Source: Trichloromonas sp. (GTDB lineage Bacteria; Desulfobacterota; Desulfuromonadia; Desulfuromonadales; Trichloromonadaceae). Taken from it: a stretch of 64,000 nucleotides of DNA. A model generated the notes under the pieces. That model had not been told where the DNA came from, did no database searches, and worked only from the letters and a program-made list of their open reading frames with translations. This document shows, piece after piece, positions 19,883 to 24,436 of this stretch (within the stretch, counting starts at the first letter, position 1; every line of letters starts with the position of its first letter). The stretch covers positions 329 to 64,328 of the forward strand of contig NZ_JAVESI010000016.1 of NCBI RefSeq assembly GCF_034006665.1, read 5' to 3'. The translations under genes were made by a program, and so were the position numbers.

Positions 19883-22800
19883 ATGAATAAATATCCTTTT
19901 TTAACTGATATTTCTCTGATGGTGCCAGCTCGGCTAAAGACACCGGAATCATGGGCTGGACATATCCCCTTCGCTTTTTTTTTGGTTGAACAAAGCCGAC
20001 CTGATTCTTTAGTGGAACTTGGGACTCATACCGGTAATTCTTATTTCGCATTTTGTCAGGCAGTTCGAGCAGCTGGTTTGTCGACTCGTTGTTTCGCAGT
20101 AGACACTTGGGAAGGTGATTCTCAGGCAGGCTACTATGGCAATGAAATCTACGTAGACGTTAGTGACTATAATGCTCGTCATTATGCTGACTTTTCTCAG
20201 CTGCTAAGACTTCCTTTTGATCAGGCTGTTACTCATTTCGATGATGGTTCTATCGATTTTCTTCATATCGATGGTCTTCATACTTATCAAGCTGTTCGTC
20301 ACGATTTCGAGTCTTGGTTGCCAAAACTGTCTTCCAGGGCTCTTGTTTTATTTCATGATACTGCAGTTCATCGTGACGACTTTGGCGTTTGGCGCCTTTG
20401 GCAGGAGCTTTCTTGCCGTTACCCCCACCTCCATTTTGAGCACTGCAACGGACTTGGTGTTCTCGCGATAGGGAAGGATCTCCCAGCCAATATTCAGGCG
20501 CTATTTCATGCTTGGACTTTTCCGGAACAGCGCGTGAGATTCGCCCAGCTGTTTGATCGTCTTGGGTTGGCTCTGATGCTGCAGATTCGACTGCATGAAT
20601 GGCAACTTGAGGCCAGGAATCTGCAGCAGATTGCGGAGAATCTGAAACAGGCGGAGCAGATTGCCAGCACTCGCCTTGCTGAACGTGATCACCAGTTGCT
20701 GGAATTGACATCCACTCACGACCGTGAAATGGCTGAGCTGCTGGCCACTCATGAGGGTCGTTTGTCCGATCTGGTCGCCAGCCATGACCGTGAAATGGCT
20801 GAGCTGCTGGCCACCCATGAGCGTCAGTCAGCCCAATATGACCGCCATCTGGCTGAACAGCTTCGCCATATCGAAACCTTGCGCCATCGTATTGATGCTC
20901 TGCTGACCAGCCGCAGTTGGCGCCTGACTGCGCCCCTGCGCTACCTGACCACTAATGGGCGTGTGACCGGTCAGCGCCTGCTTTGGTTTCGCCAGCAGAT
21001 CCATGCTCGTGGTGGTTGGCTGTCTGTTGCTGTCAAGACTCATGCTCTTTGGCGCCGTGAGGGACTGGCTGGCCTGCGTCAGCGCATGCGCCGGCTTCAA
21101 CAGGGAAACCTTCAGCCCCAGTTGACGCCAACCGCACAGGAATCAAACGACAGCGCCACCATACAGAGGGACGCCGCTCCGGCGAGTCGCCCTTACTACC
21201 TTGATCCCGCAGCCACCGTCACCATTGCGCCATATCTCCGAATCGCGGTGCATCTGCATCTGTACTATCCGCAGATGCTGGATGAATTCACCAGTCGCCT
21301 GCAGGCCATGCCGGTTGATTTCGATCTTTATGTCTCCGTGCGACAGAATAGCGACACGACTGTCTTGACCGAACAACTGCGGCGTCAGTTGCCCCGTCTA
21401 GGCCAACTGGTGATCGAAGCCGTGCCCAACCGGGGCCGCGATATCGCCCCTTTTATTGTCCAGTTCGGCCAGCGCCTGCTTCAATACGACCTCATCGCCC
21501 ATTTCCACAGCAAGCAGAGTCCGCACAGCGCCGAGCTGTCCCATTGGTGCGCCGATATTCTCAATCTCCTTCTGGGTACGGCTGAAACAGCCGCCGCAAC
21601 TCAAAGCCAGATTCTGCACCTGCTGCAGCAGGACGCCAAACTGGTGTATCCCGAAGGCCAACGTCAGATTCTCAAGGATCGCAGCGGCTGGGGTGCCAAT
21701 CAATCCATCGCCGAAGAACTGTTGCGACGTTATACTGATGTCTCAATAGCCGATTATCCTGTCGTTGAATTCCCCGAAGGTGCCATGTTCTGGGCGCGAG
21801 CCGAGGCCCTGCGCCCCTTTCTGACGCTGCCGCTGAACTGGCAGGACTTCCCGGCCGAGCCCATTCCCGCCGACGGTACCCTGGCACATGCCCTGGAGCG
21901 TCTCATCCTGATTCTCGCCAACCGCACACCCGGCCGTTTTTATCGCCTGCATCGTGGTGATTCCATTGCCGATTACCGCTATTACGAACCCCAGCAGGAT
22001 TTTTCCGCTCAGATTTGTGATGACATCCGGGTGCTCAGCTATTATCTGCCACAGTTTCATCCTATTCCGGAAAATGATGACTGGCACGGTAAGGGCTTCA
22101 CCGAATGGACCAAGGTGCGTGCCGCCAACCCGCTGTTTGTTGGTCATTACCAGCAGCACATTCCCCATCACGATCTCGGTTATTATCGGCTCGACTCCCC
22201 CGCACCCCTGATGCGGCAGGCCCATATGATGCAGAAGGCCGGCATCCATGGTCAGGTGTTCTACCATTACTGGTTTACGGGCAAGCTGATTCTCGAACAA
22301 CCAGCCCGTCTGCTACTGGAAAACCCCGATATCCCCATGCCGTTCTGCTTCTGCTGGGCCAACGAAAACTGGACCCGCCGCTGGGATGGCAACGAAGATG
22401 CCGTACTTCTTCAGCAAAACTATTCTGCGGCTGATGCCGAAGCTTTTATTCATTACCTGCTGCCCTTTTTCCGCGATTCCCGTTATGTGCGTATCGACAA
22501 CCGGCCGCTGCTGTTCGTTTACCGACCCGCTTCACTGCCCGATCCCCAGCAGTATCTTGCCGTCTGGTCCCAGCAGTGCCAAGCTGCCGGACTCGAACCT
22601 CCTTACGTTGTTGCCGTGTTGACCCGCGGTGCTAATGATCCGCGCACATTTGGCATGGATGCAGGCGTTGAACGTACTCTGCATGACTGGACCGGCGGTG
22701 CTGTTCCCGATATCCGCGACCAGTTACAGCCATATCAACCCCTGCACGGCAGCGTGCTCGATTATGATCAGGTTGCCAGTTTCTATGCCGAACAGCAGCA

Positions 22801-24436
22801 GGCCAAGCCCTACACCTGGTTCCGTTCCCTCGTGCCGATCTGGGACAACAGCGCCCGCTATGGCGCTGAGGCCCTGTTGGTGCATGGCAGCACCCCCGCG
22901 AGTTTTTCCCATTGGCTCGAGCGCCTCATCAACTACAGCCGCGCCAACCTGCCGGCCGACCGGCGGTTTATCTTGGTCAATGCCTGGAACGAATGGGCCG
23001 AAGGTGCGCACCTTGAACCGGACAGCCGCTATGGCTATGCCTATCTCAATGCTGTTGGTCGCACCCTCGCCGGGTTGCCCTACGGCATTGATCGTACCAT
23101 TCGCTGTAAACTGCTGCCGGATACTGTCGTTCGTATAGACCTGCTGCCTGATGTCTGGTCCAGTTTGCAAGCAGATACCCGCCTACATGATCGCTTCGTT
23201 GCTGCTTTGACTCAATCGAGCCTGTTTGACCTCTGCAGAATAAGTTTTGCTCAGCCTGAACTTGAGGCTGCTGTTCAGGCGGCCAGAGCTATTCGACAAA
23301 GCCCTCAAGCGGCAAGAAAGACATCGCCTCCCGAGTCTGCGCCCGACTATCTTTTTCAGTTTCGTCGGCTGGCCTTGGTCTTGCCCGACACCCTCGAAAA
23401 CATGCTGTATACGGCTATGCATCTGCCCGGCCAGATCCTGTTGTCCAACGCCTACGATCCTTTTGGGTCCCTGCCGCAGCCCACCGAAAACGGCTCCGTC
23501 GACAGCGCCACCGCCGAGCAGGCTCCGTTGCTGTTGTTTCCCGTCGCAGCTGCTCCCTGCGATTATAAAAATTACCGCCTGCGGACAGATGCTCACAGTT
23601 TTGTCACCCGGCCAGACAGCCGGCCCGTCGCCGAGTTGCCCCAAGTGACCACCATCCTGCGCTTCCACCGCCAGGGCGATCTGGCCCTGTTGCAGCAGGC
23701 GCTCTACAGCCTCGCGGCCATGCACGATTGCCAAGTCATTCCGCTGCTCGCTGTGCAGGATCTCTCGCCCGAGCAGACCCAAACACTTGATGCCCTGGTT
23801 GCCCGGTTACCTTGGCCGGCTGGCAGGCTGGCCCGTATCCTGCATTTTCACTCCGACAATGGTCAGGGGGATTTGCGTGCCCGGATGCTCAATCAGGCCC
23901 TGCAGTCGGTCACTACCCGTTATGCCGCCTTTCTTGATTACGATGATCGTCTGTTCTGCCATGCCTACGCCTGGCTGCTCGACCGCCTGCGCCAGACCGG
24001 CAAGGCCGTCACCTTCGGCCGGGTTTATTCCACCAGCTTTGATCCCAACACCGGTCAGCTGACCGGCCGTAAGCGCGAGTTTACCCACGGTCGCTGCTAT
24101 GAGGATTTTGTCAGCTGCAATCCCGCGCCACTGCATAGCTTCCTGCTTGATCTCGATCAGCTCGACCTTTCGTGTCTGGTCTGGCATGATGAACAGCGTT
24201 ATCTCGAAGATTATTATCTCACCCTGCAACTGATCACGTGCGACAACACCGACTGGCACAGCCTTGAACTTGATCACTACATTGGTGACTATCTTCATGG
24301 CACCTCCGGCGGCAATACCCTTGCCGTCGATTCCTCCGCTAACCGTGCTGATATCATTTCCAGTCCACTGTACCGGGAGTGCCAGGAACGGATCGATCAA
24401 TTACGCGTCCAACGGGTTGCGGTCAGTTCTCGATGA
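19883..24436 (+). CDS. Multidomain O-antigen biosynthesis protein: methyltransferase, coiled coil, RgpF-like, WbsX-like and GT2-like glycosyltransferase modules
   Basis: [13 protein letters not shown]...[34 protein letters not shown]...[33 protein letters not shown]...[26 protein letters not shown]. Confidence 0.75.
   Translation: [1517 protein letters not shown]
20717..20821 (+). repeat. 66-bp (22-codon) direct duplication inside the coiled-coil segment
   Basis: 20717-20755 and 20783-20821 are 37/39 identical. Both encode [13 protein letters not shown]. Confidence 0.9.

What the first reader, a model, noticed from the sequence alone, without database searches (positions are those of the whole stretch)
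19883..24436. Single-chain terminator-ruler-polymerase for O-antigen synthesis, with a 22-codon duplication in the putative ruler
Seen: one ORF joins five modules.
1. A class I SAM methyltransferase module (about 19883-20450).
2. A heptad-rich segment ending in [13 protein letters not shown] (about 20560-20960).
3. An RgpF-like module ([20 protein letters not shown]; about 21240-21950).
4. A WbsX-like glycosyltransferase module ([24 protein letters not shown]...[15 protein letters not shown]; about 22030-23030).
5. A GT2-like module with FLDYDD (about 23645-24200).

Established: in ABC-transporter-dependent O-antigen systems (E. coli O9a WbdD/WbdA, Klebsiella/Raoultella O12 WbbB), a chain-terminating enzyme is held at a fixed distance from the polymerase by a coiled coil. 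This arrangement acts as a molecular ruler.

Inference: this protein fuses a methyl-capping terminator, the ruler and the polymerase in one chain.

The coiled coil carries a 66-bp direct duplication (20717-20755 vs 20783-20821, 37/39 nt identical, [13 protein letters not shown] twice). That would lengthen such a ruler by about three heptads.
Basis: partly seen in the sequence, partly recalled or inferred. Interest (0 to 1): 0.7.

Follow-up and report, generated by a model that had tools for sequence, protein, structure and literature searches.

The report
Methyl-capping, ruler-bearing O-antigen rhamnan synthase
This 1517-residue protein joins a sugar methyltransferase, a long helical stalk and several sugar-adding modules, so it is a new domain combination of a known bacterial machine that builds surface polysaccharide chains of set length.

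Summary
Pfam supports Methyltransf_24, RgpF (C-terminal half of the model only) and WbsX, and weakly supports GT2. AlphaFold2 and Foldseek add three points: a sugar-O-methyltransferase-like head, one uninterrupted 128-residue helix, and GT-A modules plus a GH99-like barrel.

The gene lies after rmlBDAC, wzm and a wzt with a C-terminal extension. That is the context of ABC-transporter-dependent O-antigen synthesis.

The terminator-ruler-polymerase reading is well supported by comparison but not proven:
- Homologous bodies carry swapped heads (Methyltransf_24, Methyltransf_11/25, sulfotransferase).
- Four of five close ortholog pairs with an indel have indels of 3 aa or more only in the stalk (the fifth adds 4 terminal residues), sized 7, 14, 28 or 11 residues.
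- Stalk length ranges from 76 to 450 aa.

The "66-bp duplication" is real (37/39 nt). However, it is part of a four-unit array with an 11-residue period, not heptads. An 80%-identical orthologue has an array of the same length, so nothing shows lineage-specific lengthening.

The principle is already established experimentally (WbbB, K. pneumoniae O7 ORF6, WsaE). This is a new variant of a known kind, of moderate interest.

The parts
19883..24436 (+). Whole gene, 1517 aa. Multi-module polysaccharide synthase with no predicted transmembrane segment.
   Evidence: ORF list and translation. The maximum 19-residue hydropathy is 1.36. It is 99% identical to a Desulfuromonadales MAG protein.
19883..20515 (+). 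N-terminal class I SAM O-methyltransferase head, aa 1-211. This is the candidate chain-capping enzyme.
   Evidence: Pfam Methyltransf_24, E 1.4e-26. The AF2 fold has pLDDT of 90 or more. The best Foldseek match is the M. hassiacum MeT1 sugar 1-O-methyltransferase, E 4.5e-11, followed by Mg-dependent O-methyltransferases. Invariant residues are E45, G47, G51, D74, D130, H158 and D159.
20522..20905 (+). Stalk: a single continuous alpha-helix, aa 214-341 (128 residues, about 19 nm if straight). This is the candidate coiled-coil ruler.
   Evidence: AF2 helix H214-341, with block pLDDT 89-98 to about aa 320, falling to about 72 by aa 340. The 126-aa window contains 0 Pro and 2 Gly. In four of five close ortholog pairs with an indel it is the only site of indels of 3 aa or more, sized 7, 14, 28 or 11 aa. 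Length varies from 76 to 450 aa across 71 homologues.
20711..20842 (+). Array of four 11-residue (33-bp) units: [11 protein letters not shown] / [11 protein letters not shown] / [11 protein letters not shown] / [11 protein letters not shown].
   Evidence: TRF reports period 33, 3.4 copies, score 114. Units 1 and 3 share 29/33 nt, and units 2 and 4 share 20/33 nt. Orthologue L004 has four units at the same positions, with units 2 and 3 sharing 30/33 nt.
20909..20941 (+). Conserved SxSWRxTxPLR motif that closes the stalk.
   Evidence: A regular expression finds it in 63 of the 120 best homologues, always at the stalk end. It is also present in the sulfotransferase-headed Delftia protein at aa 457. 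S343, W346, P351 and R353 are nearly invariant.
20930..21100 (+). Basic helical module, aa 350-406. Net charge over aa 344-406 is about +12. It is a candidate membrane or complex docking region, followed by a disordered linker (21101-21202).
   Evidence: AF2 helices 350-375 and 379-406, with pLDDT below 50 for aa 409-433. The docking function is inferred only.
21233..21919 (+). RgpF-type module, apparently with a GT-A-like fold. It has HSK in place of DxD. This is the candidate rhamnosyltransferase.
   Evidence: Pfam RgpF, E 5.5e-40, C-terminal half of the model. AF2 shows an alternating beta/alpha pattern. RgpF elongates rhamnan chains (PMC9574508).
22031..23056 (+). WbsX module with a GH99-like (beta/alpha)8 barrel and the NAWNEWAEG motif. 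Its catalytic role is unresolved.
   Evidence: Pfam WbsX, E 8e-121. Foldseek matches GH99 endo-alpha-mannosidases with TM about 0.59. It is nearly invariant across homologues.
23126..23599 (+). Poorly conserved alpha/beta domain, aa 1082-1239, of unknown role.
   Evidence: AF2 secondary structure. Column conservation is low. There is no Pfam match.
23627..24322 (+). C-terminal GT2-like GT-A module with FLDYDD (23930-23947). This is the candidate second glycosyltransferase of the polymerase.
   Evidence: Pfam GT2 is weak here but matches 23 of 31 related proteins. D1352, D1354 and D1355 are nearly invariant, at the end of a beta-strand. Foldseek matches SpsA, TarP and the dual GT-A polymerases K4CP and LARGE1.
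15096..15917 (+). wzm, the ABC-2 permease of the glycan exporter.
   Evidence: Pfam ABC2_membrane, E 1.5e-27.
15907..17148 (+). wzt, the ATPase with a C-terminal extension of about 165 aa. This is the candidate cap-binding module.
   Evidence: ABC_tran E 4e-22. Wzt_C E 3.9e-6 at 27.4 bits, below the cut-off of 30.4. The alignment with Wzt proteins of related loci is, and the start codon is.
6968..10366 (+). rmlB, rmlD, rmlA, rmlC, which supply dTDP-L-rhamnose.
   Evidence: Pfam GDP_Man_Dehyd/Epimerase, RmlD_sub_bind, NTP_transferase and dTDP_sugar_isom.
17139..19815 (+). Three accessory genes lying between wzt and the big gene: a LpxL-like acyltransferase-like ORF (17139-18038), a Methyltransf_11 gene (about 18037-18633) and a second methyltransferase (18880-19815).
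   Evidence: Pfam. The first two are conserved in L004 and the third is absent there. The region has low GC, 0.44.

Best explanation
The gene encodes a soluble or peripheral cytoplasmic enzyme that makes an L-rhamnose-containing O-polysaccharide on undecaprenol-linked acceptor, for export by Wzm/Wzt.

Proposed mechanism (the whole mechanism is inferred; only the anatomy and the comparative pattern are shown):
1. The part after the stalk sits near the membrane. It comprises the SWR motif, basic helices, RgpF-type GT-A, WbsX barrel and GT2-like GT-A, and it extends the chain from dTDP-Rha.
2. The Methyltransf_24 head is held about 19 nm away by an oligomeric helical stalk.
3. Once the growing non-reducing end can reach the head, the head O-methylates it.
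4. Methylation blocks further extension and creates the cap that the Wzt C-terminal module recognises.
5. Stalk length therefore sets the modal chain length.

No folded domain lies between head and stalk. The cap would therefore be a methyl group, not the methylphosphate of E. coli O9a or K. pneumoniae O7.
For: - Domains: Pfam. AF2 models have pLDDT 84.5 and 83.4. Foldseek matches the head to the sugar O-methyltransferase MeT1 and the body to GT-A enzymes, including dual-GT-A polymerases, and to GH99.
- Context: rmlBDAC, wzm and wzt with an extension, all co-directional. The same wzm-wzt-big-gene order is found in L001, L003, L004 and L006, where Wzt extensions are 154-198 aa.
- In L001 and L003 no separate methyltransferase gene was called in the 24-kb locus.
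- Head swapping: Delftia, Pseudomonas and other homologues keep the stalk, the RgpF module, WbsX and, in most, the GT2-like module (the SWR motif was found in four of the six sulfotransferase-headed proteins), but carry Sulfotransfer_3 or Methyltransf_11/25 heads. Strong Wzt_C is encoded directly upstream.
- Stalk behaviour: in four of five ortholog pairs with an indel (68-89% identity) the only indels of 3 aa or more lie in the stalk, and the fifth adds 4 terminal residues. They measure 28, 7, 14, 7 and 11 aa.
- Stalks differ by 51-92 aa between bodies that are 91-93% identical.
- Stalk length is identical (149 aa) in the 80%-identical orthologue although the sequence has diverged.
- Established precedent: WbdD, WbbB and K. 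pneumoniae O7 ORF6 (PMC11231755), and WsaE (PMC2943079).
Against: - There are no chemical or phenotypic data for this organism or for any member of this domain family.
- The Wzt_C match in the window is below Pfam's cut-off.
- Locus L005 has a 247-aa Wzt without a binding module, yet encodes two head-stalk-WbsX proteins. The head is therefore not always coupled to cap-dependent export.
- Two further methyltransferase genes in this locus could supply or compete for the cap.
- No adaptor or initiating glycosyltransferase was found in the window.
- Coiled-coil oligomerisation was not predicted with a dedicated tool, and the hydrophobic periodicity is not significant against shuffles.
- The WbsX barrel is not a known glycosyltransferase fold.
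Confidence: 0.62

Rival explanations
1. The protein is a multi-module polymerase with a decorating methyltransferase. The head methylates internal residues of each repeat (for example 2-O- or 3-O-methylrhamnose). The helix serves only to oligomerise or scaffold the complex, and chain length is not measured by it.
For: - L005 has a Wzt without a binding module, together with two Methyltransf_24-stalk-WbsX proteins and a stand-alone Methyltransf_24 gene.
- The Wzt_C score in the window is sub-threshold.
- Extra methyltransferases in the locus show that methylation is used for more than one purpose.
Against: - A decorating enzyme gains nothing from being held 128 helical residues away from the glycosyltransferases.
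- Heads are exchanged for sulfotransferases and other methyltransferases while stalk and body persist.
- Stalk length is the most variable feature and changes in register-preserving steps.
- Nearly all full-architecture loci have a Wzt with an extension.
Confidence: 0.2
2. The product is not lipid A-core-linked O-antigen but another exported glycan. It could be a capsule-like or exopolysaccharide rhamnan, or a glycan attached to the neighbouring S-layer-like proteins. The enzyme logic would be the same.
For: - Type I secretion genes sit between the rml genes and wzm.
- S-layer-like proteins are conserved next to orthologous loci.
- WsaE-type systems glycosylate S-layer proteins.
- RgpF+WbsX pairs also occur in Gram-positive genomes.
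- No waaL or wecA was seen in the window.
Against: - The LPS core genes hldE and gmhB lie at the start of the same co-directional gene block.
- Wzm/Wzt with a C-terminal module is typical of O-polysaccharide systems.
- In Gram-negative precedents known to me (Caulobacter, Campylobacter fetus), the S-layer binds the O-antigen rather than being glycosylated by it. This is my own knowledge and was not tested here.
Confidence: 0.12
3. The 66-bp repeat is a recent duplication that lengthened the ruler in this lineage.
For: Units 1 and 3 are nearly identical: 29/33 nt, or 43/48 nt when extended. The only two differences within the 39-nt core are synonymous.
Against: - The 80%-identical orthologue has the same four units and the same 149-aa stalk.
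- Units 2 and 4 share only 20/33 nt, so the similar tract is 48 nt, not 66.
- In the orthologue a different pair (units 2 and 3, 30/33 nt) is homogenised. This indicates gene conversion within an old array.
Confidence: 0.1

Closest known systems
K. pneumoniae O7 ORF6 (Kelly et al., J Biol Chem 2024, PMC11231755)
   Same: It is a single polypeptide with an N-terminal methyltransferase terminator, a central coiled coil and C-terminal dTDP-Rha-dependent GT modules. Its locus carries rml genes and wzm/wzt.
   Different: - ORF6 has a hidden kinase domain and a CBM-like domain between methyltransferase and coil, and makes a methylphosphate cap. Here the head ends at aa 211 and the helix starts at aa 214.
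- The ORF6 body is two GT2 modules. Here it is an RgpF-type module, a GH99-like WbsX barrel, an extra domain and a GT2-like module.
- No sequence comparison was possible.
WbbB of K. pneumoniae / Raoultella terrigena O12 (Williams et al., PNAS 2017, cited in PMC11231755)
   Same: One chain integrates terminator, coiled-coil ruler and polymerase. The terminator is at the N-terminal, distal end of the coil.
   Different: - The WbbB terminator is a GT99 beta-Kdo transferase, not a methyltransferase.
- Its GT modules belong to GT102 and GT103.
- Sequence searches gave no significant match to any solved structure.
WbdD of E. coli O9a/O8 (PMC3482155; Hagelueken et al. 2015, cited)
   Same: It has a methyl-transferring terminator at the distal end of a coiled coil whose length sets the O-antigen modal length. 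Wzt recognises the cap.
   Different: - In WbdD the polymerase (WbdA) is a separate protein recruited to the WbdD C-terminus.
- WbdD carries a kinase in O9a.
- Sequence searches returned no WbdD structure, and none appears among the top 50 Foldseek matches.
WsaE of Geobacillus stearothermophilus NRS 2004/3a (PMC2943079)
   Same: It has an N-terminal O-methyltransferase plus two rhamnosyltransferase domains in one chain and puts a 2-O-methyl cap on a poly-L-rhamnan. The genes wzm, wzt and wsaE are contiguous.
   Different: - It is from a Gram-positive bacterium and makes an S-layer protein glycan.
[quoted passage not shown]
- Homology to this protein was not tested.
RgpF of streptococci and lactococci (PMC9574508)
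   Same: It is a rhamnan-elongating rhamnosyltransferase of an ABC-transporter-dependent pathway. The Pfam family matches aa 451-679.
   Different: Only the C-terminal half of the RgpF model is present here. RgpF is a stand-alone enzyme without head or stalk.

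Membership tests
Coiled-coil terminator/polymerase assembly proteins of ABC-transporter-dependent glycan synthesis (functional class: WbdD, WbbB, ORF6-O7) | The locus encodes a Wzm/Wzt ABC exporter. | tested here: met
   wzm is at 15096-15917 and wzt at 15907-17148, upstream and co-directional.
Coiled-coil terminator/polymerase assembly proteins of ABC-transporter-dependent glycan synthesis (functional class: WbdD, WbbB, ORF6-O7) | Wzt carries a C-terminal carbohydrate-binding module that recognises the cap. | tested here: inconclusive
   There is a 165-aa extension. Wzt_C gives E 3.9e-6 at 27.4 bits, below the 30.4 cut-off. The match is confident in orthologous loci L001 and L003 and strong in L010 and L014. 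It is absent in L005.
Coiled-coil terminator/polymerase assembly proteins of ABC-transporter-dependent glycan synthesis (functional class: WbdD, WbbB, ORF6-O7) | An extended coiled coil is present. | tested here: met
   AF2 gives a continuous helix at aa 214-341. The segment has no Pro. Indels of 7, 14, 28 and 11 aa preserve the helical register. Orthologues match coiled-coil Pfam families. The oligomeric state was not tested.
Coiled-coil terminator/polymerase assembly proteins of ABC-transporter-dependent glycan synthesis (functional class: WbdD, WbbB, ORF6-O7) | [quoted passage not shown] | tested here: met
   This holds for position and fold only. The Methyltransf_24 head is aa 1-211 and the GT modules start at aa 451. 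In homologues the head is exchangeable for a sulfotransferase or other methyltransferases.
Coiled-coil terminator/polymerase assembly proteins of ABC-transporter-dependent glycan synthesis (functional class: WbdD, WbbB, ORF6-O7) | The glycan carries a non-reducing terminal cap, and chain length depends on coil length. | not testable with these tools
   This needs NMR or MS of the polysaccharide and LPS gels of stalk-length mutants.
WbdD / WbbB sequence families | Detectable sequence or structural homology to WbdD (methyltransferase-kinase) or WbbB (GT99). | tested here: not met
   phmmer and profile searches of PDB sequences returned no WbdD or WbbB chain at E up to 1. The top 50 Foldseek matches of the head are MeT1 and catechol-type O-methyltransferases.
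Pfam Methyltransf_24 (PF13578) | Score above the gathering cut-off, with the SAM-binding motif conserved. | tested here: met
   93.8 bits against a cut-off of 26.3. [10 protein letters not shown] is present, and E45, G47, G51 and D74 are invariant.
Pfam RgpF (PF05045) | A full-length match to the model. | tested here: not met
   137.9 bits, but only model positions 269-498 of 503 are matched. The N-terminal half is present in some relatives such as L016. This protein is a partial member.
Pfam Glyco_tran_WbsX (PF14307) / GH99-like fold | A full-length match and a (beta/alpha)8 barrel. | tested here: met
   404 bits, model positions 1-350 of 350. Foldseek matches GH99 endo-alpha-mannosidases with target TM about 0.59. 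Conservation of the GH99 catalytic glutamates was not tested.
Pfam Glycos_transf_2 (PF00535) | Score above the gathering cut-off and a DxD motif. | tested here: inconclusive
   17.4 bits against a cut-off of 23.3. The family matches 23 of 31 related proteins. The D-Y-D-D motif is nearly invariant. Foldseek gives GT-A matches.

The most novel reading that the evidence does not exclude
The GH99-like WbsX barrel is not a passive passenger. It is a catalytic partner of the ruler. It is either a glycosyltransferase with a glycoside-hydrolase-type (beta/alpha)8 fold, outside the GT-A and GT-B classes, or an endo-acting chain-processing enzyme.

Supporting pattern: head-stalk-WbsX is the constant core of the family. 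Of the 120 best homologues, 16 are Methyltransf_24-stalk-WbsX and nothing else. Stand-alone WbsX genes also accompany Wzt proteins that have binding modules.

A second, compatible reading is that the length-controlled O-antigen is the anchor for the co-encoded S-layer secreted by the type I system.
Probability: 0.3. Interest if true: 0.7.

Novelty: new variant of a known kind. Interest (0 to 1): 0.4.

Why it matters
The terminator-ruler-polymerase principle has so far been shown experimentally only in a few enterobacterial serotypes.

This family is widespread. At least 2821 proteins match at E of 1e-10 or better. It occurs in Proteobacteria and Desulfobacterota, and partial versions occur in Actinobacteria and Chloroflexi.

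It offers natural experiments. Near-identical enzymes differ only by 7-, 14-, 28- or 11-residue steps in the stalk, and their heads are swapped between methyl- and sulfo-transferases. That allows a direct test of whether stalk length dictates glycan length outside the enterobacterial models. It also predicts sulfate-capped O-antigens.

The work puts an uncharacterised GH99-like domain at the centre of a polymerase. It also links a length-controlled O-antigen to a probable S-layer locus in a Desulfuromonadales bacterium.

Tried and rejected
- **Sequence searches of solved structures.** I searched with the whole protein, a 42-sequence profile and the WbsX domain alone. All returned only noise, such as TAL-effector repeats and coiled-coil proteins. 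NCBIfam gave no match.
- **Hydrophobic Fourier analysis of aa 220-345.** The peak is at 3.65 residues, but its power (48.9) does not exceed the mean maximum of shuffles (51.2). It is only descriptive.
- **Quantisation of stalk-length differences.** Over 231 pairs with bodies at least 65% identical, 51 of 222 non-zero differences are multiples of 7, against about 14% expected. The pairs are not independent, so I rely only on the single-indel pairs.
- **Promoter and terminator scan of 14900-24800.** It found nothing beyond chance.
- **Mann et al. 2019 (Glycobiology).** This survey of terminators and Wzt modules is not held in the library. I cannot say whether this architecture is already catalogued there.
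- **A hidden kinase domain as in O7 ORF6.** Rejected, because AF2 shows no folded domain between the head (ends aa 211) and the helix (starts aa 214).
- **Domain-resolved Foldseek.** It therefore remains unknown which residues align to K4CP and LARGE1.
- **The organism in the species-representative genome set.** The best hit was only 53% identical.

Full report
**1.

A single ORF runs from 19880/19883 to 24436 on the + strand and encodes 1517 aa from the ATG.

Pfam gives the following:
- Methyltransf_24, aa 44-160, E 1.4e-26.
- RgpF, aa 451-679, E 5.5e-40. Only model positions 269-498 of 503 are matched.
- Glyco_tran_WbsX, aa 717-1058, full length, E 8e-121.
- Glycos_transf_2, aa 1315-1396, E 0.0045, which is sub-threshold.

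The GT2 assignment gains support from relatives. The family matches 23 of 31 related proteins, best E 1.9e-6. The D-Y-D-D of FLDYDD is nearly invariant. NCBIfam has no model for the protein.

**2. Structure predictions**

I ran AlphaFold2 on orthologue alignments.

*Residues 1-460* (pLDDT 84.5):
- A compact methyltransferase fold at aa 1-211.
- One uninterrupted helix at aa 214-341 (128 residues).
- A short helix over the [11 protein letters not shown] motif.
- Two further helices at aa 350-375 and 379-406.
- A disordered linker.

No folded domain lies between head and helix.

Foldseek places the head closest to Mycobacterium hassiacum MeT1 (E 4.5e-11). MeT1 is a polysaccharide sugar 1-O-methyltransferase (PMC9883506). 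The next matches are Mg-dependent catechol-type O-methyltransferases.

*Residues 440-1517* (pLDDT 83.4, pTM 0.80) match three kinds of structure:
- GT-A enzymes (SpsA, TarP).
- Dual-GT-A polymerases (K4CP, LARGE1, heparosan synthase).
- GH99 endo-alpha-mannosidases, for the WbsX part, with target TM about 0.59.

The model also shows an additional, poorly conserved alpha/beta domain at about aa 1082-1239.

The protein has no transmembrane segment. Residues 344-406 carry a net charge of about +12.

**3. The repeat**

The two 39-nt stretches share 37/39 nt, and both differences are synonymous. The extended copies share 43/48 nt.

Tandem Repeats Finder reports a 33-bp unit in 3.4 copies, score 114. 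At protein level there are four 11-residue units at aa 277-320. Units 1 and 3 share 29/33 nt, but units 2 and 4 share only 20/33 nt.

The hydrophobic periodicity of the stalk peaks at 3.65 residues (11/3) and has no power at 3.5. The peak is not significant against shuffles. The centre of the stalk therefore has an 11-residue period, flanked by heptad-like stretches.

The 80%-identical orthologue P0002 (locus L004) has four units at the same positions and the same stalk length of 149 aa. In that orthologue it is units 2 and 3 that are nearly identical (30/33 nt). Units of the same index share only 19-23/33 nt between the two genes.

This is the signature of gene conversion within an old array of fixed length. 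It is not a recent insertion that lengthened the stalk.

**4. Genomic context**

Upstream and co-directional lie the following genes:

| Genes | Coordinates |
|---|---|
| hldE, gmhB, a ugd-like gene | start of the block |
| rmlB, rmlD, rmlA, rmlC | 6968-10366 |
| type I secretion system (ABC, membrane fusion, outer membrane protein) | 10547-15071 |
| wzm | 15096-15917 |
| wzt, with a 165-aa C-terminal extension | 15907-17148 |
| acyltransferase-like ORF and two methyltransferase genes | 17139-19815 |

The Wzt_C match is E 3.9e-6 and just under Pfam's cut-off. No other glycosyltransferase gene is in the window.

Orthologous loci keep the order rml, type I secretion, wzm, wzt (with Wzt_C), big gene. 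They lack the three accessory genes (L001 and L003) or lack only the last one (L004). In L001 and L003 no separate methyltransferase gene was called in the 24-kb locus.

**5. Comparative tests of the head-ruler-polymerase idea**

*(a) Head swapping.*
- Proteins in Delftia tsuruhatensis, Pseudomonas koreensis and several MAGs share the stalk, RgpF and WbsX parts, and most share the GT2-like part. Four of the six sulfotransferase-headed proteins also have the SWR motif.
- They begin with a Sulfotransfer_3 domain instead. Others begin with Methyltransf_11/25.
- In Delftia the stalk is a run of canonical heptads ending in SASWRWTAPLR.
- There, wzm and a wzt with a strong Wzt_C (E 3e-31) lie directly upstream.

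*(b) Indels.*
- Four of the five ortholog pairs with an indel (68-89% identity over about 1500 aa) have indels of 3 aa or more only in the stalk. The fifth pair adds a 4-residue C-terminal difference.
- They measure 28, 7, 14, 7 and 11 residues. These sizes preserve a heptad or hendecad register.
- A further pair (P0004/P0006) differs only by a 3-aa gap just after the stalk.

*(c) Length variation.*
- The distance from the end of the methyltransferase fold to the SWR motif ranges from 76 to 450 aa in 71 homologues.
- It differs by 51-92 aa between proteins whose remaining sequence is 91-93% identical.

*(d) Motif conservation.*
- The SxSWRxTxPLR motif closes the stalk in 63 of the 120 best homologues.

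*Counter-example.* Locus L005 has a 247-aa Wzt without an extension. It nevertheless encodes two Methyltransf_24-stalk-WbsX proteins and a stand-alone Methyltransf_24 gene.

**6. Most likely mechanism**

The anatomy and the comparative pattern are shown. Every catalytic and regulatory step below is inferred by analogy with characterised systems.

1. The post-stalk part polymerises a rhamnose-containing chain at the membrane.
2. The head is held about 19 nm away. It O-methylates the non-reducing end once the chain is long enough.
3. This stops extension and marks the chain for Wzt.

I put this at about 0.6.

The main rival is that the head decorates internal residues and the helix is only a scaffold (about 0.2). 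A second rival is that the glycan is not LPS-linked (about 0.1).

**7. Comparison with what is known**

- Whitfield and colleagues state that in all characterised cases the terminator sits at the distal end of a coiled coil, away from the polymerising modules. WbbB (O12) has everything in one chain.
- K. pneumoniae O7 ORF6 has an N-terminal methyltransferase(-kinase), a coiled coil and two rhamnosyl-GT2 modules (PMC11231755).
- WsaE of Geobacillus fuses an O-methyltransferase that caps a poly-L-rhamnan with two rhamnosyltransferase domains (PMC2943079).
- RgpF is a rhamnan-elongating transferase (PMC9574508).

The concept is therefore established. The following differ from every characterised prototype:
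- The catalytic families: a Methyltransf_24 head, a half-RgpF module, a GH99-like WbsX barrel and a divergent GT2.
- The hendecad array in the stalk.
- The conserved SWR motif and basic module.

Sequence and fold searches returned no WbdD or WbbB match. I found no experimental paper on this architecture. The only WbsX mention in context is a large B. gladioli O-antigen protein hit by phage-resistance mutations (PMC13391952).

**8. Verdict**

- Observation: confirmed.
- Interpretation: partly supported.
- Novelty: a new variant of a known kind.
- Interest: moderate (0.4).

The interest rests mainly on two points. The stalk-length variants provide natural experiments. The role of the WbsX barrel is unresolved, and it is the constant partner of head and stalk across the family.

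Noticed in passing
window 35475-39305 (+) and 31718-35368 (+); type I secretion genes at 10547-15071: Two proteins of about 1200-1280 aa look like type I-secreted S-layer proteins. They are acidic, rich in Ala/Thr/Val/Gly/Asp, contain almost no Cys and have no Pfam match. The 1276-aa protein is 100% identical to a Trichloromonas sp. protein. It is 34-41% identical to the proteins of about 1200 aa next to the orthologous wzm-wzt-synthase loci. Many of its homologues are named 'S-layer protein' by JGI or carry RTX repeats. SapC-family genes occur in L001 and L003. The arrangement resembles the Caulobacter RsaA and Campylobacter Sap loci, where the S-layer is anchored on O-antigen.
   Followed up: partly
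L014:8906-13738 (Delftia tsuruhatensis), L010:8405-13345 (Pseudomonas koreensis), L007, L027, L029, L075: Homologous synthases carry an N-terminal Sulfotransfer_3 head in place of the methyltransferase, and four of the six have a detectable SWR motif. In L014 and L010 they sit directly downstream of wzm and a wzt with a strong Wzt_C. This predicts sulfate-capped polysaccharides.
   Followed up: partly
window 18880-19815 (+): A 311-aa methyltransferase gene lies in a low-GC stretch (0.44, against about 0.55 nearby). It is absent from the otherwise syntenic 80%-identity locus L004, so it looks like a recent insertion into the cluster.
   Followed up: partly
window 17139-18038 (+) and about 18037-18633 (+): An ORF with a weak LpxL/HtrB-type acyltransferase match (Lip_A_acyltrans, E 0.002) and a small Methyltransf_11 gene lie between wzt and the synthase. 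Both are conserved in L004 but absent from L001 and L003, which have an Acyl_transf_3 gene downstream instead.
   Followed up: no
L002:10001-14347 (Brucella anthropi CP088964.1): A 1448-aa Methyltransf_24-RgpF-WbsX homologue (P0034) sits inside a prophage, with tail genes upstream and an integrase downstream. No wzm or wzt is nearby. It is a possible phage-borne O-antigen conversion function.
   Followed up: no
L005:4498-14533: One locus encodes two large Methyltransf_24-stalk-WbsX proteins plus a stand-alone Methyltransf_24 gene. Its Wzt is only 247 aa and lacks a binding module. This is an exception to the coupling of cap and exporter.
   Followed up: no
window 20909-20941 and homologues: The SxSWRxTxPLR motif marks the end of the stalk in 63 of the 120 best homologues with different heads and bodies. 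I found no description of it.
   Followed up: partly
window 20711-20842: Each 11-residue unit keeps a His followed by an acidic residue (THD, THE, SHD, THE). The orthologue has THD, RHD, RHD, RHE. The conserved His lies near the position expected to face the helix interface. Its significance is unknown.
   Followed up: no
window 41738-53297: A block of mobile-element genes lies downstream of the S-layer-like genes. It holds an IS200-like transposase (41738-42814), two tyrosine integrases (43117-44277 and 51909-53297), a MerR-like regulator and a family A DNA polymerase-like gene (49743-51458). It is probably an integrated element.
   Followed up: no
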